From positions 367 through 64,366 of the IMG/VR virus record IMGVR_UViG_3300023301_000008: DNA of 64,000 bases, one strand, 5' to 3'. Of this stretch, positions 3,378 through 58,247 are shown in pieces. The notes under the pieces are model-generated. The model saw only the letters and a program-made list of their open reading frames with translations, did not search any database and was not told where the DNA came from. The position numbers and the translations under genes are program-made. Numbering within the stretch: the stretch's first letter is position 1; every line of letters begins with the position of its first letter. The DNA comes from a virus (lineage: Duplodnaviria; Caudoviricetes).

Positions 3378-3834
3378 GAGACGAGTGTTGGCTGTAGACC
3401 CCGGAAAGGAAACCGGACTGAGCTGCTTTGAGATCGAACCCGGGGGCGAGCCCGTTCTGATCTGGTCTGCCGAAGTGGACGAGGAGACGTTCATTATACC
3501 AATCAGAAAAGAGTTGGCAGAACACCCTCACCTGGAGGTGGCATGCGAGCGGTTCACGATCAACGCGGAAACAGCCAAGAAAAGCCAGGCTCCCTTCAGC
3601 TTGGAGACAATCGGCAACCTGAAACAGGCTGTGAGAGACGTTGGACGGGCCGCAGAGAGCATCAAACTGCAGTCACCGGCAGACGCTAAGAAACTGTTCC
3701 CCAACCCCGCACTGAAGCAGCTAGGCTACTGGCACGTGGGTGGAAAAGGCCATGCTATGGATGCAATCCGTCACGGACTGCTTTACCTTGTCAATACGGG
3801 CTGGGTCCCGTCCCGGCTATTGGATGATGACTGA
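3370..3834 (+). CDS. RuvC-like Holliday junction resolvase
   Basis: VLAVDPGKETG N-terminal motif, ACERF, HAMDAIRH; lies directly after the polymerase. Confidence 0.75.
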   Translation: MSRRRVLAVDPGKETGLSCFEIEPGGEPVLIWSAEVDEETFIIPIRKELAEHPHLEVACERFTINAETAKKSQAPFSLETIGNLKQAVRDVGRAAESIKLQSPADAKKLFPNPALKQLGYWHVGGKGHAMDAIRHGLLYLVNTGWVPSRLLDDD

Positions 3835-14740: not shown

Positions 14741-14824
14741 GCCTCAGTATCGTCGCTGTCTTATAAACAGTCCTATCTAATGACGTAATTGGTGGATGTG
14801 GGTTCAATTCCCATCTGGGGTACC
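14741..14824 (+). ncRNA. Atypical D-arm-less tRNA-Ile(TAT)-like RNA
   Basis: Acceptor gcctcag/ctggggt, anticodon arm gctgt-ctTATaa-acagt, T arm gtggg-ttcaatt-cccat; no D arm and a long extra region. Confidence 0.6.
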
Positions 14825-15044: not shown

Positions 15045-15118
15045 AGCGAGGTAACCCGGAGGTGGTTCCGGTCAGGTCTCATACGCCTAGGACGAGGGTT
15101 CGACTCCCTCTCTCGCAA
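15045..15118 (+). tRNA. tRNA-Met(CAT)
   Basis: Cloverleaf, ctCATac loop, ggttcgactcc T arm. Confidence 0.8.
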
Positions 15119-17043: not shown

Positions 17044-17116
17044 GCATTTGAAGACAAAAGGTAGAGTCGCTTCCCTGTCACGGAAGAGGTAGTGGGTTCA
17101 AGTCCCATCATTTGCG
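17044..17116 (+). tRNA. tRNA-Asp(GTC), two acceptor-stem mismatches
   Basis: cttcc-ctGTCac-ggaag; acceptor gcatttg/catttgc. Confidence 0.65.
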
Positions 17117-26715: not shown

Positions 26716-27186
26716 ATGGGAATGATTATCCACCAAACAGGAGACCTGTTCACAACTGACGCACGTGCTATTGGGCATGGTGTTAATGTCGATGGCATTA
26801 TGGGCTCAGGCATTGCTTTGCAGTTCAAAGAACGCTTCCCCGATATGCACAATGAGTACAAAAAGCTCTGCAAGTCGGGTGAACTGGAGCCTGGAGGCCT
26901 TATGGTCTACGAACAGGCTCCGGGGCTGTATATTTACAACCTCGCGTCACAGGATCGCCCGGGGGCTAACGCCTCCTACGAATGGCTGTCTGAGAGCTTC
27001 AGACGTGCGCTGGGTGTTGCCGAGGCTGATGGGTTGAAAGAGATTGCTCTCCCACGGATTGGTTCTGGTATCGGTGGGCTCAATGAGCGTCAGGTTGAGG
27101 GCATGATTGCAGACATCATTGCCCCTACCCGGGTGAACGTAGAAATTTGGTCCCCCCCTCAAAAGGACATTTATGTGGTAATCTAG
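26716..27186 (+). CDS. Macrodomain ADP-ribose hydrolase (TARG1/DarG-like)
   Basis: GDLF...HGVNVDGIMGSGIALQFK, IYNLASQ, LPRIGSGIGGL. Confidence 0.9.
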   Translation: MGMIIHQTGDLFTTDARAIGHGVNVDGIMGSGIALQFKERFPDMHNEYKKLCKSGELEPGGLMVYEQAPGLYIYNLASQDRPGANASYEWLSESFRRALGVAEADGLKEIALPRIGSGIGGLNERQVEGMIADIIAPTRVNVEIWSPPQKDIYVVI

Positions 27187-27844: not shown

Positions 27845-27917
27845 GGGGGTCTAGCTCAATGGGTAGAGCGTCGGTTTTGCAAATCGAAGGCAGGGGGATC
27901 GTAGCCCCCGACCTCCA
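27845..27917 (+). tRNA. tRNA-Ala(TGC)
   Basis: tcggt-ttTGCaa-atcga; G3:U70 present. Confidence 0.88.
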
Positions 27918-27922
27918 CTTAT

Positions 27923-27995
27923 GGGCCTTTAGCACAATTGGTAGTGCACATTTCTGGCAGGAATGAGGTTGCGCGTTCGAGTCGCGTAGGGTCCA
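27923..27995 (+). tRNA. tRNA-Ala(GGC)
   Basis: cattt-ctGGCag-gaatg; G3:U70 present. Confidence 0.88.
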
Positions 27996-28034
27996 CTCCT
28001 ATTTTACAGGTTTTCCTGCAATTTTAAGAAAGAC

Positions 28035-28063
28035 TTGCGCCCGTGAAAGTTTCGTGCTAGAGT
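28035..28063 (+). promoter_or_regulatory. Putative sigmaA-type promoter of the Y RNA/Ro60 operon
   Basis: ttgcgc-N17-tagagt, same pattern as the other phage promoters. Confidence 0.6.
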
Positions 28064-28096
28064 CTTACTTAGACGTTACAACTTAACAGAGAATTC

Positions 28097-28189
28097 GGTG
28101 TACGAGCCGGATGACAGACCGTTATCAAATCCGACTAATAATCAGACACGGCGAAAGCCAATCGGTCTTCAATAACATGCTCGTTCACC
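28097..28189 (+). ncRNA. Y RNA-like unit 1
   Basis: Terminal stem ggtgtacgagc/gctcgttcacc with GAGCCGGA and ACATGCTC; second stem agaccg/cggtct. Confidence 0.75.
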
Positions 28190-28196
28190 ACAAGCT

Positions 28197-28304
28197 TAGT
28201 GGGCCGGATGTTTTCGGTTATCTCTCACATAGAAGCGAAGGCACGTTCGATTCGTGCGACGGTCTGGCTACCTAGTTACCCCGATGGCAATTACATGCCC
28301 ACTA
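28197..28304 (+). ncRNA. Y RNA-like unit 2 (contains a T arm)
   Basis: tagtgggc/gcccacta stem, GGGCCGGA...ACATGCCC; internal gcacg-ttcgatt-cgtgc. Confidence 0.75.
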
Positions 28305-28311
28305 TAACAAC

Positions 28312-28443
28312 TTGACGAGCCGGAGATTGTTCGGTTATCTATGGAACAGAAGAGGTTGTCGGTTCGAGTCCGGCAACACCCTTAGGGGTGTTTAGCTCAA
28401 TCGGCAGAGCACTAAAACCCGAGTGTCATAACATGTTCGTCAA
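28312..28443 (+). ncRNA. YrlA-type Y RNA (unit 3)
   Basis: ttgacgagc/gttcgtcaa stem; T arm gtcgg-ttcgagt-ccggc, loop-closed acceptor aacaccc-ttag-gggtgtt, D arm gctc-aatcggca-gagc; this is the YrlA topology. Confidence 0.85.
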
Positions 28444-28452
28444 TAACCTTTC

Positions 28453-28622
28453 GGTGCGAGCCGAAGAGAATTGGTTACCCATGGAAGCCAGAGGTACGGT
28501 CGCTTGACGGCCCACTGCACTCTGGACTAGGCTGAGCTAGGCTCTCAGATATTGTGCGTAGAAACGCTCAAATAGCTGGAGGAAGTACCAGCACTTCCGA
28601 TTTTCACACACATGTTCGCACT
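28453..28622 (+). ncRNA. Y RNA-like unit 4 (multi-hairpin domain)
   Basis: ggtgcgagc/gttcgcact stem, GAGCCGAA...ACATGTTC; gagaattgg/ccgattttc; several internal hairpins. Confidence 0.7.
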
Positions 28623-28653
28623 ACAACTTCGCAGCCAAAGATGTCTGCACAAA

Positions 28654-28678
28654 TATGTTCGTCACAGGGCGAGCCGGA
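28654..28678 (+). promoter_or_regulatory. Permuted Ro-binding-like hairpin in the 5' UTR of the Ro60 N-half
   Basis: tat-gttcgtc-acag-ggcgagc-cgga, about 20 nt before the ATG. Confidence 0.6.
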
Positions 28679-28697
28679 AAAGAAAGAAGACAAAGAA

Positions 28698-29261
28698 ATG
28701 ACAGATTCACTTAAGACAGTACGCACCCGTGCCGCATCCCAGCTTGATCCTGCAAAAGCTCCTCAGACTGTTCGGACCCGCGAGGACCAGGTGCAGAACA
28801 ACGCAGGCGGTTTTGTATTTTCCGTCAACGACATGGAACGCGCCAAGCGCTTCCTCATTCTAGGTTCTGAGAAGAACTTCTACACTTCTGGGCAGAAGCT
28901 CTCGAAGGAGAACGCTGGTGTCATCACCAAGCTGGCTTCCGACGCTGAGGCTGGCATCCAGCTCGTGGACCTGATCACGGAGATTTCTGTGGCCGGTCGC
29001 GCTCCCAAGCAGAACCCTGCTCTCTTCGCTCTGGCTATTGCAGCTTCGAGTCCCGAAGAGTCGGTACGTTCGTATGCCCTCGACAAGTTGACTGATGTTG
29101 CGCGAACCGCTACACATTTGTTTATCTTCGTAGGGTATGTTGAACAGTTCCGTGGTTGGGGCCGTGCACTTCGTCGTGCTGTTGGAGGTTGGTATCTGTT
29201 CCACGAAGGACGTGGGTCTCTTGCATACCAAGTGACAAAGTATCGTAGTCGTGTGGTATAA
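28698..29261 (+). CDS. Ro60/TROVE RNA-binding protein, N-terminal part
   Basis: DQVQNNAGGFVF, RFLILGSE, GRAPKQNPALFALA, RTATHLF, GWGRALRRAV..WY, LAYQVTKYR. Confidence 0.92.
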   Translation: MTDSLKTVRTRAASQLDPAKAPQTVRTREDQVQNNAGGFVFSVNDMERAKRFLILGSEKNFYTSGQKLSKENAGVITKLASDAEAGIQLVDLITEISVAGRAPKQNPALFALAIAASSPEESVRSYALDKLTDVARTATHLFIFVGYVEQFRGWGRALRRAVGGWYLFHEGRGSLAYQVTKYRSRVV

Positions 29262-29292
29262 TGGAATCTTTCTGATTCTCATTTTCGAAAAT

Positions 29293-29320
29293 TATGCTCA
29301 CTAGTTGTGAGCCGAAAGGA
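29293..29320 (+). promoter_or_regulatory. Permuted Ro-binding-like hairpin plus RBS of the Ro60 C-half
   Basis: tat-gctcac-tagtt-gtgagc-cga directly abutting aaagga, 7 nt before the ATG. Confidence 0.65.
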
Positions 29321-29327
29321 ATAAAAA

Positions 29328-30398
29328 ATGACAAACACTGCTTGGACACACCGTGATGTCTTACGACTATCACATCCCAACATTACGGACGATAATCTGG
29401 TGAATTGGATGACCGGCAAGGATTTTGATCTAGATACCCTACCTGCTCAGACTAAGGGGTATGAGCTTGCCAAGAGCCCTGGCGCAGACGTGCCTGCACT
29501 CATTCGTGAGTACGGGCTGAGCTGGGAGATGATCCCGACTCAGGCACTCAACACGCCTGCCACGTGGGATGCACTGATGGACGGTAACGTTCCTCTCGGT
29601 GCGCTGATCCGTCAGCTCCCGCGTCTGACTCGTATTGGGTGGCTTGCACCTATGAATGCGAACACGGCTTTGGTCGTGACTCGTCTCACCGATACAGTCC
29701 AGTTGGAGAAGGCTCGTATTCACCCGTTGAATGTTCTGTCCGCGATGAAGACATATTCCGCAGGCGGCGCGACGTACGGGTACAGCAGCTCTGCACGTAA
29801 GCCGCAGATTCCGTACACTCCAGTGCGTGAGATCACAGATGCGTTGGATGCCGCGTTCTACTTGGCGTTCAAGTCAGTCACCCCCGCCAATAAGCGGACG
29901 ATGGTTGGTGTGGACGTGTCAGGATCGATGGCCTCGTACATCGGTGACAGCCCGCTATCCGCAGCAGAAGTTGCTGCAGCTATGGCGCTCGTCACTGTGG
30001 CTACCGAGCCGATGGTTGTGGTCTATGGGTTCTCCCACCAGATCGCAGAACTGCCGATCAGCCCGCGTCAGCGTCTTGACGATGTTCTGGACCTTACGAG
30101 GGATCGTAACTTTGGTGGTACGGACGCAGCTCTTCTAGTGCGTACGGCATCTGCGAAGAACATTCTCGTGGATACGTTCATCGTGATCACTGACAACGAC
30201 ACCTGGGGTATGAGACACGTGTATGCCGAATTGGAGAAGTACCGCGCCAAGACTGGAATTTTGGCCAAGATGATCGTCTTGGCCTGCACCGCAAGCGAGT
30301 TCACTGTTGCGGACCCGAGGGATGATCTGAGCCTAGATATTGCGGGCATGGACTCTGCAGTGCCGCAACTGATTGCTGAGTTCAGTAGAGGGGATTAA
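29328..30398 (+). CDS. Ro60/TROVE protein, C-terminal part including vWA domain
   Basis: WTHRDVLRLSHP, LSWEMIP, RIHPLNVL, MIDAS DVSGSM, GGTD, ITDNDT, DIAGMDS. Confidence 0.92.
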   Translation: MTNTAWTHRDVLRLSHPNITDDNLVNWMTGKDFDLDTLPAQTKGYELAKSPGADVPALIREYGLSWEMIPTQALNTPATWDALMDGNVPLGALIRQLPRLTRIGWLAPMNANTALVVTRLTDTVQLEKARIHPLNVLSAMKTYSAGGATYGYSSSARKPQIPYTPVREITDALDAAFYLAFKSVTPANKRTMVGVDVSGSMASYIGDSPLSAAEVAAAMALVTVATEPMVVVYGFSHQIAELPISPRQRLDDVLDLTRDRNFGGTDAALLVRTASAKNILVDTFIVITDNDTWGMRHVYAELEKYRAKTGILAKMIVLACTASEFTVADPRDDLSLDIAGMDSAVPQLIAEFSRGD

Positions 30399-30534
30399 CA
30401 AATAGAATTCACCCTGTTTTATTTTTAAAAAAGGTTCTTAGAACTTTGCCTTGCTGTATCATCATCAATCTGATAGACTGGGGCTCGACTTATTAATAGG
30501 TCGGGCCCCTTTATCTTTTAAGGAAGCAGAATAA

Positions 30535-30834
30535 ATGCGCGTACGTGAAGTTCATCAGAACGGCAGTGTTATCGAACTGCGTGGACTCTTTAGGGTCAAC
30601 AAAGCGCTGAAGGAGTGGCGAGATCGCCAGGAAGAAGTGCCCAAGAAGGAGGACCCTGAAGACTCCAGACCTAAGGTTACCGGAGTATCTGCTCAGGTGC
30701 ACGGCAGCGGCCAGCGTGACTATCAGATCAGTAAGGGGCGTATCCCCGAGATCAACGCGGAAACCCCCTTCAAATTCGGGTTCCAGCCTAACCCTGCAGC
30801 TCCTGTGGAGCCCAATACTTATCCTGAGGTGTAG
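30535..30834 (+). CDS. Hypothetical protein
   Basis: ORF with aagga RBS. Confidence 0.55.
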   Translation: MRVREVHQNGSVIELRGLFRVNKALKEWRDRQEEVPKKEDPEDSRPKVTGVSAQVHGSGQRDYQISKGRIPEINAETPFKFGFQPNPAAPVEPNTYPEV

Positions 30835-32463: not shown

Positions 32464-33972
32464 TCAACGTGTTTTCACATATCTAGATTTTCCGGCATCC
32501 CATACTCTGAACATGCCGTTGAGGGCTGCAAGCTCTTTTTCTGAGAGGCCTGGGATAGTTTTGAGGTCGGGGTCTCGATTGAATCTGTCTTTGCGGTAGT
32601 TGAACTTGTGCTCCCTACGGCGTGCCCCTCGTCTCAGGTATGTGTAGTCCGGAGGCAGAGTCTTATCTAGAACAAATCCTGTCTTCAAGTAGAGGTCTCC
32701 GGTGGAGACTCTAAGATCAGCGAAAGTGATCCACTCATCCACCTCGTACAAGTTCTCTACGTATTTCATTAGTTTGGGCATCCCTCCCGGCACTCTGGCA
32801 GATGTGGCGTATCGTTCTAGATAGAATGCTCCATTAAGTTTTGATTTTTGTTTGGCAACAAGAACAGCAACATCTTCTCCTTCCGGACTCACCAGCATTG
32901 CGTATACAGTGCCTCTTGCTGCCCCCTGTATGTGGTTGGCCTGTAGAAACGTGCTGGCGCGGTCATAGGACACAGACTCCATCGAACATTTTCTTGTGTT
33001 TATTTTAGAGTCTGTGCTCATGTTCAGCTTGTGTTTAATCATACGTTCTACTGCCTCTCTGTGGTATAGCCACTCGTCTTCCCAGATTTGAATAAGTTGG
33101 ACACCTGAAGCTTCACACGCCCTTAGTCGATTTGCGTGGCTATGTCTGTCTTTATATTTTTCGCTGTGCCAGAAAATCCCATCTAACTCAAAAGCCTGTC
33201 TAGTTTCTGGAATATAGACATCCAACTCATAGGGGGGCACCACACCGGTAACACTATTTTGTGCGGTCGGCTGGAGTGTGTGGATAAATGAGTACAACTC
33301 CTGTTCAATCTTTGAGGTTCCAGTGGTATTGCAGTGTCTACATCCTTGCCCGGACGCACGGTGGTAGACTCCGGTGGACCAGACTCTGCTGCACATGTTA
33401 CAGCGCCATTTGGCTCTGTACTTGGCAGACACCATATAATCCTCGGGGTTCCCGTGATTGTCCTCGTGCCACTCTGAGGCCAGCTCTGGAAATTGATGTA
33501 GAAGAGAATTTTTACGAGATGGGTCAACCTTAATTCCAGCGCAAAACGGACATCCGGATTTTGTTCGATTTCTTTGGTGAGGTGTGGCCTCCCAGGAGTG
33601 TTCTGGGTTGTTTTTGCAAAGCCACCACACTTTTTTTGAGTGGTTTGCAAGAATCTCAGTTGATCTTGTAGGGTTGGTCTTGGAGTACTCTTTATTAAGT
33701 TCTGGGTTAATGTCCGCCAATGAGTTGAACCCGGATAGAACTTTTCGCATGGGTGTGGAGCAGTACGGGCATCCAAAGCCCCTGATGCGGTCTTTGGGGG
33801 TGGCCCTCCATGTGTGGTAGTGTCCACTCTCTGGGTCTGTATGGGACCACTCTAGGAGTTGGTGCGTACCGGGACGCACAGATGTGGTGTGGCTGTACTC
33901 TACTGCCTCACGAGCCAGGTCTGGGAACAGGTCGGCTACGCTTCCCCCAGGGAGAGGAATTTTTGATGTCAT
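32464..33972 (-). CDS. Zinc-ribbon-repeat endonuclease (putative homing endonuclease)
   Basis: Repeated H.W...R...GCP.C units, ELDVY..AFELDGIFWH PD-(D/E)xK-like domain, C-terminal HIQG...FAD...VWDAGK domain. Confidence 0.7.
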   Translation of the reverse strand: MTSKIPLPGGSVADLFPDLAREAVEYSHTTSVRPGTHQLLEWSHTDPESGHYHTWRATPKDRIRGFGCPYCSTPMRKVLSGFNSLADINPELNKEYSKTNPTRSTEILANHSKKVWWLCKNNPEHSWEATPHQRNRTKSGCPFCAGIKVDPSRKNSLLHQFPELASEWHEDNHGNPEDYMVSAKYRAKWRCNMCSRVWSTGVYHRASGQGCRHCNTTGTSKIEQELYSFIHTLQPTAQNSVTGVVPPYELDVYIPETRQAFELDGIFWHSEKYKDRHSHANRLRACEASGVQLIQIWEDEWLYHREAVERMIKHKLNMSTDSKINTRKCSMESVSYDRASTFLQANHIQGAARGTVYAMLVSPEGEDVAVLVAKQKSKLNGAFYLERYATSARVPGGMPKLMKYVENLYEVDEWITFADLRVSTGDLYLKTGFVLDKTLPPDYTYLRRGARRREHKFNYRKDRFNRDPDLKTIPGLSEKELAALNGMFRVWDAGKSRYVKTR

Positions 33973-34014: not shown

Positions 34015-34206
34015 CTACGCGTACAGGTGTGTCGTCTCACATGCGGAGCAGTAGTAGCCCACCAGATTTTCGCGCTTCATGTAGCCGCGTTTCTCCGTCT
34101 GGGTGATCGAGTTGAGGTTATTGAATGACCCCCCGCACGTCTCACACGTGTCGGGGGTTTCAAACAATACGACAGGTTTAATACTTTCTTGATCTTCATT
34201 GTTCAC
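34015..34206 (-). CDS. Small zinc-binding protein
   Basis: CETC and CSAC pairs. Confidence 0.5.
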   Translation of the reverse strand: MNNEDQESIKPVVLFETPDTCETCGGSFNNLNSITQTEKRGYMKRENLVGYYCSACETTHLYA

Positions 34207-35687
34207 TGTAGGTTTCCTCTTTCTGTTTTAGTGTACCTTATTTTACCGGCATCCCATACTCTGTAGAGCCCATTCAAAGTAGCCAGCTCCCGCTCTGTTA
34301 GTTCGGGTTGGTAGAGTAGATCATTATCGAGTCTGAATCTCTTTTTACGGTAATTGAATTTGTGGACACGTGTCTTTCTATTGGATAGGTATGTGTAGTC
34401 TGGGGGAAGAATTTTGTCTACTTGGAATCCAGTTGATTCATATAACCCCCCATCTGTTGTGGCTAGGTCTGCAAATGTGACCCAAGTCTTAACGTCCTCC
34501 ACTTTGGCTATGTGGGCCATCAGTTTAGTGAAGCCTCCCCGGACTAGACCCACCGTGGCGTACCTATCGATGATGTGCTCTCCTGATGAAGACACTCTCC
34601 GGGCCAGTACGGCCCTGAGGACCCCGTCTGAGGTTTTTAGTCCATAGTACCGTGCAACTCTCGGCGGCCCCTGGATGTGGTTTATCATTAAGAATCGTCT
34701 CGCTTCTAGAGCAGAGACTATCCCGGGCACACACTTATTGGCAGATACCCTCTCTCCTGAGAAATTTCCAGTAAGCATTAGTATTCTGTTTTCTATGAGG
34801 GATCGGTTTCTGTCCCAATCATCGCTCCATATTTGAAGAAGTGTGATATTTTTGTCTCGGCACTCCTGGTACTTGTCGTGGTGGTATCCTCTAGGACGGG
34901 TGCCTTCTTTGTGCCACCACAGGCCGTTGAATTCAATTGCCAAGTTGTGATTTGGTATCCAGATGTCCAGCTCTTTGGTTCGCAGTTGGGTTCTGTCTCT
35001 GGGTTGGTGTTCAATGTTGTGGTGGGTGAGGAAGGCCGACAGTTCCTCCTCGGGGCGACTGATAGAGTGTGCACACGTTGGACATCCTGTAGATTGGGAT
35101 GTTCTCATATCTGGAGACGCTAACCACGTGTGCTTTTTGTTGCATGACCAGTCTACTTTTTGGTTGTGCCCTGCTACAACATCTTGAGGAGTCATTCGGC
35201 TGTCTGCCCAGTCTTTGGCTACTTCTGGGTGAGATGTGCCTAGATCGTTGATTCCCACAACAACCTGTCTGTTGTAACACACAGCGCATTTTTGATTTCC
35301 GGCCACTCTATTGTTTACGGTGGCCTCCCACTCATGTCCGCAGGAGCCCAGCCACCATGCCTTGGTTCGGTGTCCTTTTCGGATAGTCTCTGGACCATAG
35401 AGATTCTTTGTGGGGTGCCATTCATCGGCTATGCTGGGGTTTGTGGTGAGTAGGTCATTGAATCCTGCCCAGGTGGCCTTATTGGCACAGTATGGACACT
35501 TTGAACCACGGACGCGCGGTCCGGGCCAGCTCTCCCACTCGTGGTTTAGGGCACACACCCACCAGTATTTTTTGTGTCCAAATGGGCTAATTGTGTTTAA
35601 CGTGGCAGGCAGATTTTTAGTGGGGTGCCACTCTAACAATAGTGATTCGGGGATAATAACCATATACTGATGGTACCATAAAGTCAC
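34203..35687 (-). CDS. Zinc-ribbon-repeat endonuclease, paralog of 32464-33972
   Basis: Same repeats, ELDIW..AIEFNGLWWH, HIQG, FAD, HKFNYRK, VWDAGK. Confidence 0.7.
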   Translation of the reverse strand: MTLWYHQYMVIIPESLLLEWHPTKNLPATLNTISPFGHKKYWWVCALNHEWESWPGPRVRGSKCPYCANKATWAGFNDLLTTNPSIADEWHPTKNLYGPETIRKGHRTKAWWLGSCGHEWEATVNNRVAGNQKCAVCYNRQVVVGINDLGTSHPEVAKDWADSRMTPQDVVAGHNQKVDWSCNKKHTWLASPDMRTSQSTGCPTCAHSISRPEEELSAFLTHHNIEHQPRDRTQLRTKELDIWIPNHNLAIEFNGLWWHKEGTRPRGYHHDKYQECRDKNITLLQIWSDDWDRNRSLIENRILMLTGNFSGERVSANKCVPGIVSALEARRFLMINHIQGPPRVARYYGLKTSDGVLRAVLARRVSSSGEHIIDRYATVGLVRGGFTKLMAHIAKVEDVKTWVTFADLATTDGGLYESTGFQVDKILPPDYTYLSNRKTRVHKFNYRKKRFRLDNDLLYQPELTERELATLNGLYRVWDAGKIRYTKTERGNLQ

Positions 35688-35696
35688 CGGATGCGG

Positions 35697-36776
35697 TTAG
35701 AAGTCCCAGTCCGTTTTCTCCATGGCCGCAGCCTTGGGGTCTTTGTAGGTTGAGCCGCCACCGCTGAAGAAGTCGTGATTCTCTCCCGTAAGGGATAGGG
35801 CAGACAGGATCGTGGCGTTGACCTGTGTCGTGTCGGATGGGAAGAGATTTGGGTATCCCAGATTCTGGAGTGCCTTGTTAGCATTATATCGGAGGTAGGT
35901 TTTGACCTGCTCGGTCAATCCAATCTCGTCGTACAGGTCTTGGGTGAACTGAATCTCATTGTCGTAGAGGTCCATGGTCAAGTTGACCGCGAACTCTTGG
36001 TAGTAGTTCTGTTGTTCCTGTGGGAGCTTGCGAACACCATTCTGGTATTTGTACCCGATGTATTGTCCGTGCACGGCCTCATCCCTAACGATTAGTCGGA
36101 TGATGTCAGCACTGTTGGTAATCTTGCCTCGGGAGGACATGTAGAACGGCCAGAAGAATCCGCTGTAGAACAGAAACGACTCTAGGAGGGTGCTTGCAAT
36201 CTTTCTCTTGTGCGGGTCATCTCCATCGTAGTAGCTGAGAATAATTTCAGCCTTCTTCTGCATCTGAGGATTCTCTTCAACCCAGCGGAAAAGGTCATCG
36301 ATCTCCTCGGTAGAGCAGAGCGTACTGAAGATGTTGCTATAGCTTCGAGCGTGCACTGACTCCATGAAGGCAATGTTGGTGTAGACCGCAGCCTCATGAG
36401 GGGTCACAGAGTCCGGAATGAGGGAGATTGCGCCCACCTCAGATTGGATCGTATCTAGAGCCGTGAGGCCACCGAATACCTTGCGAGTGATGTCCTTCTC
36501 GTTCTCGGTCATATTTCTCCATGAGGGGAGGTCATTGGATACGGCGATCTTCTCTGGGAGCCAGAAGTTCTCGGTGAGCTGGTTCCAAGCGATGCCGTCC
36601 ATCGGGTCTGGGAGTCGGTTCCAGTTGATGGCCGGGACTAGTCGGGGGTTCACCACAGTTGGTCCCCTTGAGGGCAACCTACTCAAGAACTCTAGAGGAC
36701 TGGTGGTGCATCCCGATTCGATGGTTTCTCTCTCAAGCGAGGAGGAATTGTCTGTCATTTCTTTTTCTCTTTCCAA
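35697..36776 (-). CDS. nrdF: Ribonucleotide reductase class Ib beta subunit
   Basis: AINWN, FWLPEKI, LDTIQ, ESVHARSY, ESFLFYSGF, DEAVHG, DWDF C-terminus. Confidence 0.96.
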   Translation of the reverse strand: MEREKEMTDNSSSLERETIESGCTTSPLEFLSRLPSRGPTVVNPRLVPAINWNRLPDPMDGIAWNQLTENFWLPEKIAVSNDLPSWRNMTENEKDITRKVFGGLTALDTIQSEVGAISLIPDSVTPHEAAVYTNIAFMESVHARSYSNIFSTLCSTEEIDDLFRWVEENPQMQKKAEIILSYYDGDDPHKRKIASTLLESFLFYSGFFWPFYMSSRGKITNSADIIRLIVRDEAVHGQYIGYKYQNGVRKLPQEQQNYYQEFAVNLTMDLYDNEIQFTQDLYDEIGLTEQVKTYLRYNANKALQNLGYPNLFPSDTTQVNATILSALSLTGENHDFFSGGGSTYKDPKAAAMEKTDWDF

Positions 36777-36894: not shown

Positions 36895-39800
36895 TCACAG
36901 CTCGCACGCAACACAGTTCGAGAGCTGAGTACCTTCCATCGGGTTCTGGTTTACACGGGTGTAGTAGATGGTCTTAAGGCCTTTCTTCCACGCGTAGATG
37001 TGCGCTTTAGTGATGTCACGAGTTGTGGCATCGCCGTTGATGAACAGTGTGCAGGAGAGGCCCTGGTCTACGTGTTCGGTTGCGGCAGCATAGACATCGA
37101 TCAACGCCTCTGGGGAGAGGTGGTACGAGTCTCGGTAGAACTCTCGGTTGTCTTCGTTCATTCCGAAGGCCGGGTAGTAGATGCGTCCGAGCGCACCCTC
37201 CTTACGAATCTCAATCTGTGCTGAGATCGGGTGGATGGATGCGGTGGAGTGGTTGATGTATGAGATCGAACCGGTCGGAGGCACCGCTTGAAGGTATCCG
37301 TTGTAGATGCCGTACTTAGCCACCACGTCCCGAAGAAGGGTCCATACCTCGACCCCGGGGACCGTAATTCCATACTTCTTGAATAGCTCCTGCACTCTCT
37401 CAGTTTTTGGTGCCCAACTCTGTGAGATGTACTTCTCAAAATACTCCCCAGAGGCGTACTTACTTGATTCAAATCCGTCAAAGGTCTCTCCACGTTCTTT
37501 CGCAATGGTGGCTGATGCTCTCACGGCATAGTAGGTAATGGCCGCAAAATACGCTGAAGTAAAGTCCACAGCCTCTGGAGAGTCGTAATGTATTTTCTCG
37601 GAGGCCAAAAATCCTGCAAGGTTCATCTGACCGAGGCCGATGGCGTGTGTCATGGCGTTTCCTTGTGCAATCGAAGGCACGGCTGACACATTGGAGAGGT
37701 CGGATACAGCGGTAAGTGCTCGAACAGCGATGTGTACCGTGTTTCCTAGGTCACCACCGTATATCGACTTGGCAATGTTCATAGAGCCTAGGTTGCAAGA
37801 GATGTCTCGACCAACGTGATCGTATGAGCCATCCTCATTGAAAGTGGAGGCGGTGTTGACCTGAAGAATCTCTGAGCAGAGGTTAGACATGTTGATGCGA
37901 CCCTTCAGATTGGAGGCCCGGTTAGCAGTGTCCTCGAAGAGAAGGAACGGATAGCCGGAGGACATAGCCAACTCTGAGACGACCTCGAAGAATCGAAGTG
38001 CCTTGATCTTGGTCTTCCTGATCCTAGAGTCCTCTACCCATGCACGGTAGTGCTCGGTCACAGAGAGGTCGGTCATGGGCTTACCCATAACGCGCTCCAC
38101 ATCATAGGGCGAGAAGAGGTACATATCCTCGTCGTTCTTAGCCAAGTGGAAGGTGATATCCGGAATGACCACGGCGAGGGAGAGCGTTTTAATTCTGCTC
38201 TTCTCGTCCGCGTTTTCGCGCTTGGTGTCTAGGAACGTCAGAATGTCCGGGTGGTGCGCGTTCAAGTAGACCGCACCGGCACCGGGGCGAGCCCCGAGTT
38301 GGTTAGAGTACGAGAAAGCATCCTCAAGCATCTTCATAACTGGCACGACACCGGAAGACTGGCCCTCGATCTTTTTTATGGGGGCACCGGCTTCACGAAG
38401 ATTGGTGAGCGTAAACGCCACACCCCCACCGCGCTTAGACATTTGGAGCGCAGCATTATGAATGTTCGAAATTGATTCCATGTTGTCTTCAGTACGTACG
38501 AGAAAACAGTTGTGAACAACATACCCATTTGCAACGTAGGTGTGATCATCCTCAACCTCCAAGTTGAAGACCTCTACAGGACTCTCTAGGGCTGTGTGGT
38601 CCACACTCCGCACCCTGTACATGGGGTGTCCGTCTATCACGCGCTTATGTACTGTGGACTGGTGGCTGTCAGTAATTCGGAACTTCTCAATGGTCTTGTC
38701 TACCGCATAGATATACTCAGTGTTTCTTCCGACTCCCTGTGTGATAATCAACTGGGCGGTAGGGTTTCCTGCCTGATTAGTATAAATTCTAGTTGTTGGG
38801 GCTAGGCCTGTTCGAAGGGCGGTATCAAAAAGTTGCTGAACTAGGGCTGGGTTTACGAGGTCCATAATTACCCCAGCCTTGACTGTTGTGCCGTCTCCCC
38901 GCATGGCTCCAATCAGGAGCCCCCACAGGAAATCAGCAGGAGCGTGAGTGTAAATTTCCGGTAGGGTTTTTCTATCAAAACCCGTACCAATGGTGTTTAG
39001 GAAGAAGTCCCCGACAGCTTGCGACCAGACAGCCACATTGGTGGACCCGTCCTTGTTCACGTTTATGGTAGGGGTGAGGCCGAAAATCTCCTCAGACAAG
39101 GCAATGACATCCTCAATGTATTTCTCCTCATGGGACCCAAAAGTAAATCGTACTCCCTTCACTGCGCCGTTGGTTCGATGTGTGTATCCCTCAGCCAGGT
39201 AGTATCCTATAAATCTTCCGAACTTCTCGTCAAGTTGCACGACATCCCGTACAGGCCGAGACTGTAGTGAGGTGGTGTGGCCTTTTCTTTTGTTGTTTTT
39301 AGCGTCCACTGTACCTACGGCCAGTACTCCTGCGTCTAGGCTATATCGAGTGCTGTTTCTCAGGTACGAGGACACCTGTATTTGAGTATCCTCTTCGAGT
39401 GTGGTGTCCACCCCCAAAGCCACATAGTCTCCGGGCTTTACATCCTGGAGGGGCACCCATTTCAGATTTTCGGTGGCTCCGTCTCCCAAGTGTACAGACG
39501 CTACGTCCCGGGGGGTAGATACCAGTACCGGGTGCTCCCCTGTGCCACGAAGGGGTCGGATGTTCCCACTCACAGCGAGAGTGACCATGAAGTCGGTCTC
39601 ATATCTGGAGCCTACAGAGGTTACGGACATGAATCGACCAGCATGTGTCAGTACTTTGTCTCCCGTTCGAATTTTCTCGATAGGTACAGAGCCGTTTTCG
39701 GTCGTAATCGGAGTCCCCGCTTCGAAGCACGAGACCAATTCTCCTCGCTGAGCCTTGGCCGCGTTGAGGAACGTGGGGGTTGCGGGCTGGTAACGACCAG

Positions 39801-40269
39801 TCATGATTTCGTCTACAAGGGACTCTGCAGTGGAGACATCTCCACGAGCGAGATAGAGCGCGGTGGCCGAAACTCGGTCCTCGAATCGCTCAAGATATCG
39901 CTTACCATCGAAGGTTTTCAGGGCATACGTGGTGTAGAACTTGACCGCTCCGAGGAGTCCTGGGAATCGAAACTTGTACGCGTAGGAGAGCTTGTATATG
40001 TCCTTGACATCCTCAAAGTTGTACTGGTCGAAGATGGCCTTCTCGTAGTACTCATTGTCGAATAGGAAGTCCAGCTTCTCTTCAAGGGTGTGAAAAAAGA
40101 CCGTAGAAGGATTAATGTTCGTCAAGAAGTATTGACGTGCGGACTCTCTGTCCATGTGGAGCTGGAGGGTCTTTTTCTCTTCATCGGCGTAGAAGTATGA
40201 CATCGCGTTCAAGGCGAAGTAGTCGGACTCCCCGTGCGATGTGGTGCTTACGTCCTCAATGATTGTCAT
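36895..40269 (-). CDS. nrdE: Ribonucleotide reductase class Ib alpha subunit, intein-containing
   Basis: YQPATPTFLN, GELVS|CFL, SNLCSEI, PPTGSISY, C-terminal CVAC. Confidence 0.96.
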   Translation of the reverse strand: MTIIEDVSTTSHGESDYFALNAMSYFYADEEKKTLQLHMDRESARQYFLTNINPSTVFFHTLEEKLDFLFDNEYYEKAIFDQYNFEDVKDIYKLSYAYKFRFPGLLGAVKFYTTYALKTFDGKRYLERFEDRVSATALYLARGDVSTAESLVDEIMTGRYQPATPTFLNAAKAQRGELVSCFEAGTPITTENGSVPIEKIRTGDKVLTHAGRFMSVTSVGSRYETDFMVTLAVSGNIRPLRGTGEHPVLVSTPRDVASVHLGDGATENLKWVPLQDVKPGDYVALGVDTTLEEDTQIQVSSYLRNSTRYSLDAGVLAVGTVDAKNNKRKGHTTSLQSRPVRDVVQLDEKFGRFIGYYLAEGYTHRTNGAVKGVRFTFGSHEEKYIEDVIALSEEIFGLTPTINVNKDGSTNVAVWSQAVGDFFLNTIGTGFDRKTLPEIYTHAPADFLWGLLIGAMRGDGTTVKAGVIMDLVNPALVQQLFDTALRTGLAPTTRIYTNQAGNPTAQLIITQGVGRNTEYIYAVDKTIEKFRITDSHQSTVHKRVIDGHPMYRVRSVDHTALESPVEVFNLEVEDDHTYVANGYVVHNCFLVRTEDNMESISNIHNAALQMSKRGGGVAFTLTNLREAGAPIKKIEGQSSGVVPVMKMLEDAFSYSNQLGARPGAGAVYLNAHHPDILTFLDTKRENADEKSRIKTLSLAVVIPDITFHLAKNDEDMYLFSPYDVERVMGKPMTDLSVTEHYRAWVEDSRIRKTKIKALRFFEVVSELAMSSGYPFLLFEDTANRASNLKGRINMSNLCSEILQVNTASTFNEDGSYDHVGRDISCNLGSMNIAKSIYGGDLGNTVHIAVRALTAVSDLSNVSAVPSIAQGNAMTHAIGLGQMNLAGFLASEKIHYDSPEAVDFTSAYFAAITYYAVRASATIAKERGETFDGFESSKYASGEYFEKYISQSWAPKTERVQELFKKYGITVPGVEVWTLLRDVVAKYGIYNGYLQAVPPTGSISYINHSTASIHPISAQIEIRKEGALGRIYYPAFGMNEDNREFYRDSYHLSPEALIDVYAAATEHVDQGLSCTLFINGDATTRDITKAHIYAWKKGLKTIYYTRVNQNPMEGTQLSNCVACEL
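38509..39729 (-). mobile_element. Intein in nrdE with LAGLIDADG endonuclease
   Basis: Starts CFEAGTPITT, TGEHPVL, IGYYLAEG and GAMRGDG, ends VFNLEVEDDHTYVANGYVVHN before Cys. Confidence 0.92.
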
Positions 40270-57557: not shown

Positions 57558-58247
57558 ATGGAAAAGATTAAGACGTATCTAGTTGGTGGTGCCGTTCGAG
57601 ACCATATTTTGGGTCTTGACCCTAAGGACCTTGATTATTCGGTCGTTGCTTCCAGCTTCTCTGCTATGAAGTCCTGGCTTGAGGATGAAGGATACACTAT
57701 CTTTCTTGAGCATGAAGACTTCGGTGTGATTCGTGCACGGAAAGGGAAGCAAGTCGCTGACTACGTGATCTGCCGAAAGGACGGCGTTTACTCTGATGGT
57801 CGTAGACCGGACTTTGTGGAGGTCGGAACCCTCGAAGATGACTTGAGGCGGAGAGATTTCACCATCAACTCTTTAGCGATGGACGAGTCCGGCAAAGTCA
57901 TCGACCTCTTCGGAGGTGTGAAAGACCTGCAGTATCGACGGCTTCGCGCAGTGGGCGATCCTATGGATCGTCTACGTGAAGACCCGCTCCGAGCTTTCCG
58001 GGCACTTAGGTTCTCTGTTACGAAAGCGATGGAGATTGATAAGGACCTCGCGCACGCCATGCAAGTCCTGAGTGTTATTGACAGCATGGAGTCGGTGTCC
58101 ACGGATCGCATCCGTGTGGAGCTAGGCAAGATGTTCGCGTTCGATTCGACTGCGTCTATGGAGCTTTTGATTCGAACGTACCCCGACTACCTTCGAGTAG
58201 CTGTGGATCGTGGTATCTGGTTCGAACCGACAGTGAAGGGTCGATGA
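57558..58247 (+). CDS. Class II tRNA nucleotidyltransferase (CCA-adding-like)
   Basis: GGAVRD, DLD, EDDLRRRDFTINSLA, EDPLRAFRALRF. Confidence 0.9.
   Translation: MEKIKTYLVGGAVRDHILGLDPKDLDYSVVASSFSAMKSWLEDEGYTIFLEHEDFGVIRARKGKQVADYVICRKDGVYSDGRRPDFVEVGTLEDDLRRRDFTINSLAMDESGKVIDLFGGVKDLQYRRLRAVGDPMDRLREDPLRAFRALRFSVTKAMEIDKDLAHAMQVLSVIDSMESVSTDRIRVELGKMFAFDSTASMELLIRTYPDYLRVAVDRGIWFEPTVKGR

What the first reader, a model, noticed from the sequence alone, without database searches (positions are those of the whole stretch)
28097..28622. Tandem array of four Y-RNA-like RNAs with a shared scaffold and different internal domains, upstream of Ro60
Seen in sequence: four consecutive units (28097-28189, 28197-28304, 28312-28443, 28453-28622) share one architecture: terminal stem, G(A/G)GCCG(G/A)A, second stem, GTTA(T/C)C, variable domain, second stem, ACATG(C/T), terminal stem. 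The terminal stems differ in sequence but each pairs internally, which is covariation and argues for selection on RNA structure. The internal domains differ: unit 1 has small hairpins, unit 2 a lone T arm, unit 3 a complete permuted tRNA mimic (T arm, closed acceptor stem, D arm), unit 4 a ~100-nt multi-hairpin domain. Established: bacterial Ro60 binds Y RNAs through a conserved terminal helix, YrlA has the unit-3 topology, and Y RNAs tether Ro60 to effectors such as PNPase. Inference: the phage carries a modular set of Y RNAs that direct one Ro60 to several partners or act as different decoys, for example against tRNA-targeting defence nucleases. Units 1, 2 and 4 may be undescribed Y RNA classes.
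Basis: partly seen in the sequence, partly recalled or inferred. Interest (0 to 1): 0.9.

Follow-up and report, generated by a model that had tools for sequence, protein, structure and literature searches.

The report
Four phage Y RNAs before split Ro60
A large phage carries four small structured RNAs in a row that share the docking stem used by Y RNAs to bind the Ro60 protein; such rows turn out to be common next to Ro60 genes, but here the Ro60 gene is split in two and each half is preceded by a small copy of that docking stem.

Summary
A covariance model built mostly from other phages finds exactly four matches in the 64-kb window, at 28100-28186, 28197-28304, 28313-28442 and 28454-28621. 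They share a terminal stem, a CGRA loop, a second stem and GUUAYC. The same scaffold occurs 179 times, always on the Ro60 strand, in 68 of 90 phage sources, in arrays of 1-7 units. It also occurs 102 times in 80 bacterial Ro60 loci. The units are therefore Y RNAs of the YrlA/YrlB kind, and a four-unit array is ordinary.

- Unit 3 is a YrlA-type tRNA mimic.
- Units 1 and 2 belong to recurring subclasses.
- Unit 4, at 168 nt, is the longest unit seen and has no detectable relative.

Two features appear new:
- The Ro60 gene is split by a 66-nt spacer, which I saw in 0 of 169 other loci.
- Both halves are preceded by a hairpin that is a circular permutation of the Y RNA docking stem plus CGRA, placed next to the ribosome-binding site. 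A similar leader sits at the Ro60 start in 17 of 172 other loci.

This suggests translational autoregulation, which is untested. No expression data exist.

The parts
28035..28063 (+). Putative promoter of the array: a -35-like hexamer at 28035-28040, a 17-nt spacer and an extended -10 (TGnTANNNT type) at 28055-28063, about 30 nt before unit 1.
   Evidence: Read by eye. The consensus scan did not list it because it matches 8 of 12 positions and the scan requires 9. Similar TGn-TANNNT motifs lie about 20 nt before the first unit in Cece, A3Wally, Big4 and GMA2 (by eye). This is an inference.
28097..28189 (+). Y RNA unit 1 (93 nt): scaffold plus small hairpins, including a GNRA-capped hairpin.
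   Evidence: R1 match at 28100-28186, 42.4 bits. The fold shows both stems, z -2.82. The inner hairpin is shared with units in Cece (L008:2106-2191) and L011:2529-2610.
28197..28304 (+). Y RNA unit 2 (108 nt): scaffold plus a hairpin and a T-arm-like hairpin (YrlB-like).
   Evidence: R1 match at 28197-28304, 43.5 bits. 24 nt of the inner part are 96% identical to Cece L008:303-326. The same layout occurs in L024, L054, L011, L085 and the Mycobacterium MAG locus L114.
28312..28443 (+). Y RNA unit 3 (132 nt): a YrlA-type permuted tRNA mimic. T arm at 28358-28374, 7-bp acceptor-like stem closed by a tetraloop at 28375-28392, D arm at 28395-28410.
   Evidence: R1 match at 28313-28442, 38.8 bits. 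Rfam RF02553 YrlA match at 28351-28413, 35.1 bits, E 7e-6, below the gathering score of 69. The arms were read.
28453..28622 (+). Y RNA unit 4 (170 nt): scaffold with the exact GCCGAAG motif and an inner multi-hairpin domain of about 115 nt with no known relative.
   Evidence: R1 match at 28454-28621, 41.6 bits. Fold z -2.54. It is the longest of 159 units in 60 distinct arrays. No blastn match at E<=1 in the other loci held at that call. No Rfam match at E<=10.
28657..28678 (+). Leader hairpin A before the Ro60 N half: a 7-bp stem with a 4-nt loop, followed directly by CGGA and a purine-rich tract, 19 nt before the ATG. It is a circular permutation of the Y RNA terminal stem and loop.
   Evidence: The motif GAGCCGRA occurs 12 times in the window against 4.5 expected, and 5 of the 12 lie between 28104 and 29316. 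The descriptor did not find this hairpin because it lacks a canonical Shine-Dalgarno word. I added it by hand.
28698..29261 (+). Ro60 N-terminal half (187 aa, TROVE domain N part).
   Evidence: Pfam TROVE E 8.3e-13, profile positions 1-158. It aligns end to end with the N parts of 11 unsplit phage Ro60 proteins.
29262..29327 (+). 66-nt spacer that splits Ro60. It holds an extended -10-like motif over the stop codon (29254-29262) and leader hairpin B.
   Evidence: The Logan contig is identical to the window here. The promoter-like motif was read by eye only.
29296..29316 (+). Leader hairpin B before the Ro60 C half: a 6-bp stem with a 5-nt loop, then CGAA overlapping the AGGA ribosome-binding site, 11 nt before the ATG.
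29328..30398 (+). Ro60 C-terminal half (356 aa, TROVE C part plus the Ro60 vWA domain).
   Evidence: Pfam vWA_Ro60 E 3.3e-46 and TROVE E 3.2e-21. 42-47% identity to the 'Ro-like RNA binding protein' of actinophages.
30480..30519 (+). Terminator-like hairpin (13 pairs) followed by a T run, after Ro60.
   Evidence: The scan listed no comparably strong (13-pair) terminator-like site on the + strand between unit 1 and the end of Ro60. It did list two weak + strand sites there (28316-28333, 5 pairs, inside unit 3; 28963-28980, 6 pairs, inside the Ro60 N half).

Best explanation
The locus is a phage Ro60/Y RNA operon. A promoter near 28035-28063 probably drives one transcript that holds four Y RNAs, the two halves of Ro60 and a terminator at 30480-30519. 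The precursor is probably cut into four separate RNAs of about 90-170 nt, as in M. smegmatis. Each RNA carries the same docking module for Ro60: the terminal stem whose 5' strand ends in G-N, the CGRA loop opposite an A/C-rich ...CAU loop, a second stem, and GUUAYC. Each carries a different inner module. Unit 3 is a YrlA-type tRNA mimic, unit 2 a T-arm type, unit 1 small hairpins, and unit 4 a large domain without relatives. By analogy with published Y RNAs, the docking module holds Ro60. The inner module either gates the ring or tethers it to another factor, such as the host PNPase or tRNA-handling enzymes. What is shown here: the shared scaffold, its covariation, its wide occurrence next to Ro60 on the same strand, and the tRNA-like anatomy of unit 3. 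What is inferred: co-transcription and processing, Ro60 binding, and any partner of the inner modules. The two Ro60 halves probably reassemble into one ring. The permuted docking hairpins in front of both start codons probably let Ro60 bind its own mRNA and limit translation of both halves. I put the odds of that last point at about 0.4.
For: 1. R1 finds exactly the four units in the window at E<=10, and three of them were not in the seed.
2. R1 finds 179 matches at E<=0.01 in 735 kb of 90 phage sources, all on the Ro60 strand, in 68 of the 90 sources. It finds 102 matches in 80 bacterial Ro60 loci, 100 of them on the Ro60 strand.
3. Covariation in the MAFFT seed alignment: 90.1% of cells paired, 15 of 20 pairs changed on both sides, 0 of 500 shuffles as high, 33-49% paired when slid. 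In the 150-match alignment: 92.4% paired, 16 of 17 pairs changed on both sides, 33-41% when slid.
4. The 5' strand carries the published Ro60-site motif. It is exact in unit 4. Units 1-3 have CGGA in place of CGAA, as do 12 of the 16 seed units (motif from PMC4201824).
5. Unit 3 matches the tRNA-like core of Rfam YrlA at E 7e-6.
6. No comparably strong terminator-like site lies on the + strand between the units and Ro60 (two weak ones of 5-6 pairs were listed), and a 13-pair one follows Ro60.
7. Published precedents: YrlA and YrlB bound by Rsr and processed from one precursor, and YrlA cut by RNase P and given CCA (PMC4201824); a phage Ro60 that binds two upstream Y-like RNAs and host PNPase (PMC12135203).
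8. The record encodes a PolyA_pol/CCA-adding-type enzyme (97.7 bits).
9. Split halves: the complex prediction scored 0.86 against a best control of 0.00. That mark was reached by 58 of 80 solved complexes and 2 of 110 mismatched pairs. The runs agree in at least 86% of contacts and the partner pLDDT is at least 83. I used my own alignments, so these counts hold only roughly. Because Ro60 is a solved single-chain fold, the pass may come from memory.
10. Leader hairpins: in the 250-nt bin that holds the Ro60 start there are 19 in-frame hits in 17 of 172 loci, against 0-4 in every other bin. The 14 distinct versions have differing stems, always a G-C pair next to CGRR, and a start codon 11-19 nt later.
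Against: - I have no transcript or binding data for this phage or any close relative.
- Rfam YrlA is far below its gathering score (35.1 against 69). The same is true of a Mycobacterium MAG, phage Farewell and L031 (35-41 bits).
- Units 1-3 have CGGA, not the published CGAA.
- Unit 2 alone folds no better than shuffles (z -1.14, 30 of 200 as good), and its minimum-energy fold lacks the second stem.
- The second stem of units 1 and 3 has bulges or mismatches that the model flags.
- I picked the seed units with a descriptor that requires pairing, and the alignment is fitted to the model. Both covariation counts therefore lean towards the structure.
- R1 misses units that are visible by eye in A3Wally, Big4 and Magritte, so all array sizes are lower bounds.
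- For the leader: leader A lacks a clear Shine-Dalgarno word, the generic hairpin+CGRA descriptor is not specific (187 hits on + against 190 on -), and only about a tenth of loci have the element.
- The split could be a recent disruption, although both halves are intact.
Confidence: 0.8

Rival explanations
1. The four elements are not released as separate RNAs. Together they form a long structured leader of the Ro60 mRNA that Ro60 binds in cis, for example to set its own level or to protect the message.
For: No comparably strong terminator-like site lies between the units and Ro60. In many loci the last short unit ends 10-40 nt before the Ro60 start. Docking-stem mimics sit right at both start codons.
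Against: In M. smegmatis the homologous RNAs are processed from one precursor and are bound by Rsr as separate RNAs (PMC4201824). In Cece and L031, units lie between tRNA genes and far from the Ro60 start. 7-9-nt spacers separate complete stems.
Confidence: 0.1
2. The units are decayed tRNA genes or tRNA-derived debris at the end of the 33-gene tRNA array, with no function of their own.
For: They follow directly after tRNA-Ile, tRNA-Ala and tRNA-Ala. Units 2 and 3 contain tRNA-like arms.
Against: The shared scaffold is not tRNA-like. ARAGORN and the Rfam tRNA model do not call the units. The scaffold covaries and tracks Ro60, not tRNA arrays, in 68 phage sources and in bacterial loci.
Confidence: 0.03
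3. The leader hairpins are relics of truncated Y RNA units, that is, the junction of two tandem units cut after CGRA. The split of Ro60 is a recent insertion of such a relic, and neither has a regulatory role.
For: The 5' strand of leader A is nearly the same as the 3' strand of unit 3. A junction between two like units would form exactly such a hairpin. The insertion-type split was seen in 0 of 169 other loci.
Against: There are 14 distinct versions whose stems differ. All keep the G-C pair next to CGRR and lie 11-19 nt before the start codon, in phage and bacterial loci. They are enriched only at the Ro60 start. Both halves keep intact frames and conserved residues.
Confidence: 0.35

Closest known systems
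Mycobacterium smegmatis YrlA and YrlB (Chen et al. 2014, PMC4201824; passages and section 5 read)
   Same: The RNAs are encoded directly upstream of the Ro60 gene on the same strand and made from one precursor. YrlA has a T arm, a 7-bp closed acceptor-like stem and a D arm, like unit 3. YrlB has a T arm, like unit 2. The 5' strand of the terminal stem carries the GNCGAA-type motif.
   Different: This locus has four units, not two, and is in a phage. Units 1-3 have CGGA. Unit 4 has a large inner domain with no relative. Ro60 is split. Nothing here has been tested at the bench.
Thermus phage phiLo Ro60 with Yrl1 and Yrl2 (NAR 2025, PMC12135203; abstract and passages read)
   Same: A phage-encoded Ro60 with Y-like RNA genes directly upstream, found through the CGAA motif in a bulge between stems. 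In that paper the RNAs bind the phage Ro60 and host PNPase.
   Different: phiLo has two units and belongs to a different phage lineage. The passages I read mention no tRNA-like module. Its Ro60 is a single chain.
Rfam RF02553 YrlA (the Salmonella type)
   Same: The same order of tRNA-like arms. Unit 3 matches model positions 24-84 of 114 at E 7e-6.
   Different: The score of 35.1 bits is below the gathering score of 69, and the stem part of the model is not matched. Actinobacterial and actinophage examples behave the same way.
Deinococcus radiodurans Yrn1/Yrn2 and the four small RNAs upstream of rsr (as described in PMC4201824)
   Same: Several small RNAs are encoded in a row upstream of the Ro60 gene. 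A Y RNA tethers Ro60 to PNPase.
   Different: The paper reports a different docking-helix type, with both strands conserved as in animals, and a different arm order.
Translational operators that imitate a protein's main RNA ligand, such as ribosomal-protein operons and the MS2 coat protein operator (recalled, not from a call)
   Same: The leader hairpins imitate the Y RNA docking stem and lie on or next to the ribosome-binding site.
   Different: No binding or repression has been shown for Ro60. The resemblance is in sequence and position only.

Membership tests
Bacterial/phage Y RNA (YrlA/YrlB kind) | Encoded close to a Ro60 (TROVE) gene on the same strand | tested here: met
   The units lie at 28097-28622 and Ro60 starts at 28698, both on the + strand. 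The published criterion is within 4 kb on the same strand (PMC4201824).
Bacterial/phage Y RNA (YrlA/YrlB kind) | The 5' and 3' ends pair into a stem, and the 5' strand carries the Ro60-site motif GNCGAA(N0-1)G next to an internal loop | tested here: met
   The motif is exact in unit 4. Units 1-3 have G at the fifth position, as do 12 of the 16 seed units. The stems covary.
Bacterial/phage Y RNA (YrlA/YrlB kind) | Homology to Y RNA units at other Ro60 loci | tested here: met
   R1 scores of 38.8-43.5 bits, and only four matches in the window. The family occurs in 68 of 90 phage sources and in bacterial loci.
Bacterial/phage Y RNA (YrlA/YrlB kind) | Bound by Ro60 and stabilised by it | not testable with these tools
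   Requires RIP or gel shift.
Bacterial/phage Y RNA (YrlA/YrlB kind) | Present as a discrete small RNA | not testable with these tools
   No RNA data could be laid on the locus (see Tried and rejected).
YrlA subfamily (tRNA-mimic Y RNA) | T arm, closed acceptor-like stem and D arm, in that order | tested here: met
   Met by unit 3 only: Rfam alignment and reading. Units 1, 2 and 4 do not meet it.
Rfam RF02553 YrlA | Score at or above the gathering threshold of 69 bits | tested here: not met
   35.1 bits, and no match in the gathering-threshold scan. A Mycobacterium MAG, phage Farewell and L031 also reach only 35-41 bits.
tRNA gene | Called by ARAGORN or the Rfam tRNA model | tested here: not met
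   No call between 28097 and 28622.
Ro60 (TROVE plus vWA ring protein) | A TROVE domain followed by the Ro60 vWA domain in one chain | tested here: not met
   Both domains are present but sit on two ORFs separated by 66 nt with two in-frame stops. The halves are predicted to reassemble (the pass may reflect memory of solved structures).

The most novel reading that the evidence does not exclude
Ro60 controls its own synthesis through an operator that is a circularly permuted Y RNA docking stem. The hairpin's 3' strand, followed by CGAA, runs into the ribosome-binding site, so bound Ro60 would block initiation when free Y RNA is scarce. In this phage the gene was split, and the operator was duplicated so that both halves stay under the same control. 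A further possibility is that unit 4 is a new Y RNA class whose large domain recruits a partner other than PNPase or tRNA enzymes.
Probability: 0.4. Interest if true: 0.7.

Novelty: new variant of a known kind. Interest (0 to 1): 0.5.

Why it matters
Y RNAs are the regulators of Ro60, a conserved RNA quality-control protein and a human autoantigen. In bacteria, only a few Y RNAs have been seen at the bench, and the 2014 survey states that the non-tRNA-like ones eluded computer searches.

This locus led to a scaffold model that finds them. The model shows that Ro60 genes of phages and bacteria commonly carry rows of one to seven Y RNAs with different inner modules. That makes the question of what the different modules do testable in cultured phages such as Cece or A3Wally.

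The permuted docking hairpin at the Ro60 start codon, if it works as an operator, would be the first known feedback loop for Ro60. The split gene offers a natural test of how the ring assembles.

Tried and rejected
- **Rfam.** The gathering-threshold scan of the whole window listed only tRNAs. A permissive scan of 27990-28720 added only the partial YrlA match and two chance-level hits.
- **Near-relative search.** blastn of the region against 50,697 phage records gave one partial match, to Cashline, 17% of the query. A single-protein search of viral contigs found nothing, so I used an alignment instead.
- **Strict pairing descriptor.** It missed units 1-3 of the window itself, so I dropped it in favour of the covariance model.
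- **Generic hairpin+CGRA descriptor.** It is not specific (187 hits on + against 190 on -). Only the version tied to a ribosome-binding site and the Ro60 start is enriched.
- **Expression.** No RNA holder was listed. The only run holding the stretch is one DNA run of a hypersaline lake metagenome, which may be the source sample. Laying its contigs showed identity only.
- **Relatives of unit 4 and of spacer hairpin B.** Exact-pattern scans found none in viral contigs or metagenome contigs.
- **RNA repair genes in the record.** RtcB and RNA ligase were not found. The record is only about 34% of the genome, so this says little.
- **L050.** It looked like a second split Ro60 but is a plain frameshift.
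- **Papers and tools.** The two reviews on bacterial Y RNAs were not held. I did not use the search for homologous proteins, the search of protein representatives, structure prediction, fold search or the atlas.
- **Claims about print.** I found no paper on Ro60 autoregulation or on arrays of more than four units. This rests only on the searches and on the passages read.
Full report
**What is there.** The window is 64,000 of the 64,366 bases of a viral contig judged about 34% complete. It carries 33 tRNA genes between 14.9 and 28.0 kb (Rfam lists 35 tRNA matches). Each has:
- a terminal stem of 8-11 pairs;
- a 5' loop CGGA (units 1-3) or CGAA (unit 4), opposite a 7-8-nt A/C-rich loop ending in CAU;
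- a second stem of about 9 pairs;
- GUUAUC or GUUACC;
- a variable inner part.

Spacers between the units are 7-9 nt.

**Is it more than chance?** I collected Ro60 loci from elsewhere:
- 12 annotated phage records;
- 80 viral contigs;
- 80 bacterial or archaeal genome contigs.

I aligned fifteen short units from other phages with unit 1 and built a covariance model, R1, with the two stems. In the whole window, on both strands and at E<=10, R1 finds exactly four matches, the four units, at 38.8-43.5 bits. Units 2-4 were not in the seed.

Over the window plus 89 phage loci (735 kb), R1 finds 179 matches at E<=0.01. Every one is on the Ro60 strand. In the 80 genome loci it finds 102 matches, 100 of them on the Ro60 strand.

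Covariation is strong:

| Alignment | Cells paired | Pairs changed on both sides | Shuffles as high | Paired when slid |
|---|---|---|---|---|
| MAFFT seed alignment | 90.1% | 15 of 20 | 0 of 500 | 33-49% |
| 150 matches | 92.4% | 16 of 17 | 0 of 500 | 33-41% |

Two cautions apply. I picked the seeds with a descriptor that demands pairing, and the second alignment is fitted to the model. Within the window itself, four terminal-stem positions change on both sides between units and stay paired.

Single-sequence folding is only moderately supportive. The z-scores are -2.82, -1.14, -2.57 and -2.54, and the minimum-energy fold of unit 2 does not show the second stem.

**What the units are.** The scaffold matches the published description of bacterial Y RNAs: the 5' and 3' ends pair, and the 5' strand holds the GNCGAA(N0-1)G Ro60-site motif (PMC4201824, passages). 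Unit 4 has the exact motif. Units 1-3 have G at the fifth position, as do 12 of the 16 seed units.

- **Unit 3.** It has a T arm, a 7-bp acceptor-like stem closed by a tetraloop, the two linker bases and a D arm. This part matches Rfam YrlA at E 7e-6, but at 35.1 bits it is below the gathering score of 69. The same shortfall is seen in a Mycobacterium MAG, mycobacteriophage Farewell and the closest viral contig L031, at 35-41 bits over the same model part. The threshold therefore does not separate this lineage.
- **Unit 2.** It has a hairpin plus a T-arm-like hairpin. 24 nt are 96% identical to a unit of Microbacterium phage Cece. The layout recurs in several viral contigs and in a Mycobacterium MAG. 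M. smegmatis YrlB is described as having a T arm.
- **Unit 1.** It shares a GNRA-capped hairpin with units in Cece and L011.
- **Unit 4.** Its inner domain of about 115 nt has no blastn match at E<=1 in the other loci held at that call, no Rfam match and no exact relatives in two collection scans. At 168 nt it is the longest of 159 units. The next longest is 148 nt.

**How ordinary is a four-unit array?** Among 60 distinct arrays, the numbers of units are:

| Units per array | 1 | 2 | 3 | 4 | 5 | 6 | 7 |
|---|---|---|---|---|---|---|---|
| Arrays | 11 | 19 | 18 | 7 | 3 | 1 | 1 |

These are lower bounds. R1 misses units that are visible by eye in A3Wally, Big4 and Magritte, and 22 of the 90 sources had no match.

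By simple motif tests, the 159 units divide as follows:

| Class | Units |
|---|---|
| Short (59-77 nt) | 74 |
| T and D arms | 43 |
| T arm only | 22 |
| D arm only | 4 |
| Other | 16 |

Bacterial loci also have arrays: five units in L165, and four in two Mycobacterium MAGs and in Arachnia. In Cece and L031, units sit between tRNA genes.

The literature I could read reports:
- two Rsr-bound Y RNAs from one precursor in M. smegmatis;
- two in Salmonella;
- four small RNAs upstream of rsr in Deinococcus;
- 355 putative YrlAs in 254 bacteria and 22 phages (PMC4201824);
- two Y-like RNAs upstream of a Thermus phage Ro60 that bind it and host PNPase (PMC12135203).

The kind is therefore known, and this locus is a richer member of it.

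**The operon.** By eye, a -35-like hexamer and an extended -10 lie at 28035-28063. The scan tool did not list them. Similar motifs precede the first unit in four relatives. No comparably strong terminator-like site lies on the + strand between the units and Ro60. The scan listed two weak ones there, of 5 and 6 pairs, and a 13-pair hairpin with a T run follows Ro60 at 30480-30519. Co-transcription and processing are inferred from the M. smegmatis precedent.

**A split Ro60.** The TROVE and vWA protein is encoded in two ORFs in the same frame: 28698-29261 (187 aa) and 29328-30398 (356 aa). They are separated by 66 nt that carry two in-frame stops. The break falls between the conserved KYRxR and GW(S/T)HRD motifs without loss of residues.
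- In 86 of 89 phage loci the frame is open for at least 516 nt upstream of the C-half match. Two of the others sit at contig ends, and L050 has a plain frameshift.
- In 78 of 80 genome loci the frame is also open, and the other two are at contig ends.
- So I saw no other insertion-type split in 169 loci.

A separate assembly of the one run that holds the DNA is identical over 27900-30600, but that run may be the source sample.

A complex prediction supports reassembly of the halves. The score was 0.86 against a best control of 0.00. That mark was reached by 58 of 80 solved complexes and 2 of 110 mismatched pairs. Contact agreement was at least 86% and the partner pLDDT at least 83. I used my own alignments, so those counts hold only roughly. 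Because Ro60 is a solved single-chain fold, this shows likeness and may come from memory.

**Docking-stem mimics at both start codons.** Just before each half lies a hairpin whose 3' strand ends in GAGC and is followed by CGGA or CGAA. Its 5' strand is preceded by AU. The two are at 28657-28678 (19 nt before the ATG) and 29296-29316 (11 nt before the ATG, with CGAA running into AGGA). This is the Y RNA terminal stem and its two loop strands with the connectivity permuted.

GAGCCGRA occurs 12 times in the window against 4.5 expected, and 5 of the 12 lie within 28104-29316.

I wrote a descriptor of hairpin, CGRR, a Shine-Dalgarno word and a start codon. It gives 144 hits on the + strand and 142 on the - strand over 1.32 Mb. 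However, 19 in-frame hits in 17 of 172 loci fall in the 250-nt bin that holds the Ro60 start. Every other bin has 0-4. These loci include A3Wally, Big4, Zooman, Cece, L031, L011, and genome loci labelled Nocardia, Cellvibrionaceae, Armatimonadaceae and Kofleriaceae.

After collapsing repeats there are 14 distinct versions:
- the stems differ;
- all 14 have a G-C pair next to CGRR;
- 12 of 14 have U just before the hairpin;
- the start codon lies 11-19 nt after CGRR.

The descriptor missed leader A because its purine tract lacks a canonical word. I added it by hand.

My reading is that Ro60 binds its own leader and limits translation. I put this at about 0.4. The main rival is a relic of a truncated unit.

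I found no paper on such feedback. The two reviews on bacterial Y RNAs were not held, and supplements are closed.

**Function.** What the four inner modules do is not shown. The published model is that the docking module holds Ro60 while the other module gates the ring or tethers it to PNPase. The record also encodes a CCA-adding-type enzyme. This fits the finding that M. smegmatis YrlA is cut by RNase P and receives CCA.

**Verdict.** The Y RNA reading is well supported by homology and covariation but untested at the bench. The array as such is ordinary for Ro60 loci. Unit 4, the split Ro60 and the operator-like hairpins are the parts worth following up.

Noticed in passing
window 28698-30398: The Ro60 gene is split into a 187-aa half and a 356-aa half by a 66-nt spacer with two in-frame stops. 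I saw no other insertion-type split in 169 Ro60 loci. The halves are predicted to reassemble.
   Followed up: yes
window 28657-28678 and 29296-29316; also L002:2420-2442, L008:2419-2441, L009:2418-2440, L031:2908-2934, L091:2920-2941, L095:2944-2961 and others: A hairpin followed by CGAA and the ribosome-binding site lies just before the Ro60 start codon. It is a circular permutation of the Y RNA docking stem and occurs in 17 of 172 other loci.
   Followed up: yes
window 29254-29262: An extended -10-like motif (TGnTATAAT) overlaps the stop codon of the Ro60 N half. It may give the C half its own promoter. This was read by eye only.
   Followed up: no
L008 (Cece) 186-255 and 262-374; L031 2099-2233, tRNA 2237-2308, 2394-2525: In relatives, Y RNA units are interleaved with tRNA genes rather than all lying next to Ro60.
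   Followed up: partly
L054 1766-2944; L019 1848-2951: The largest arrays seen have seven and six scaffold units upstream of Ro60. L054 shares a nearly identical unit with the Mycobacterium MAG locus L114.
   Followed up: partly
window 57573-57947 (+): A PolyA_pol / CCA-adding-type nucleotidyltransferase domain (97.7 bits) in a 272-aa open frame.
   Followed up: no
window 36895-40269 (-): The large subunit of ribonucleotide reductase is interrupted by an intein (Hint, LAGLIDADG and intein-splicing matches). The small subunit is at 35697-36776.
   Followed up: no
window 32464-33972 and 34203-35687 (-): Two neighbouring proteins of about 500 aa, each with three DUF4379 treble-clef zinc-finger repeats. 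One also has a weak REase_MTES_1575 match.
   Followed up: no
window 26716-27186 (+): A Macro-domain protein lies within the tRNA region, just upstream of the last tRNA genes and the Y RNA array.
   Followed up: no
window 14741-14822, 15045-15118, 17044-17116, 27923-27996: The tRNA callers disagree. The first three are Rfam tRNA matches (30.1, 30.6 and 47.4 bits) that ARAGORN does not call. ARAGORN's tRNA-Ala(ggc) at 27923-27996 is missing from the Rfam list.
   Followed up: no
run X1, record 2 (5038 nt), touching window 28787-28810 and 29145-29165: A second contig in the same sample shares short stretches of the Ro60 N half, so a related phage may be present there.
   Followed up: no
L050 about 3250-3400: The Ro60 of this viral contig has a plain frameshift in the TROVE part. 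It could be a sequencing error or a pseudogene.
   Followed up: partly
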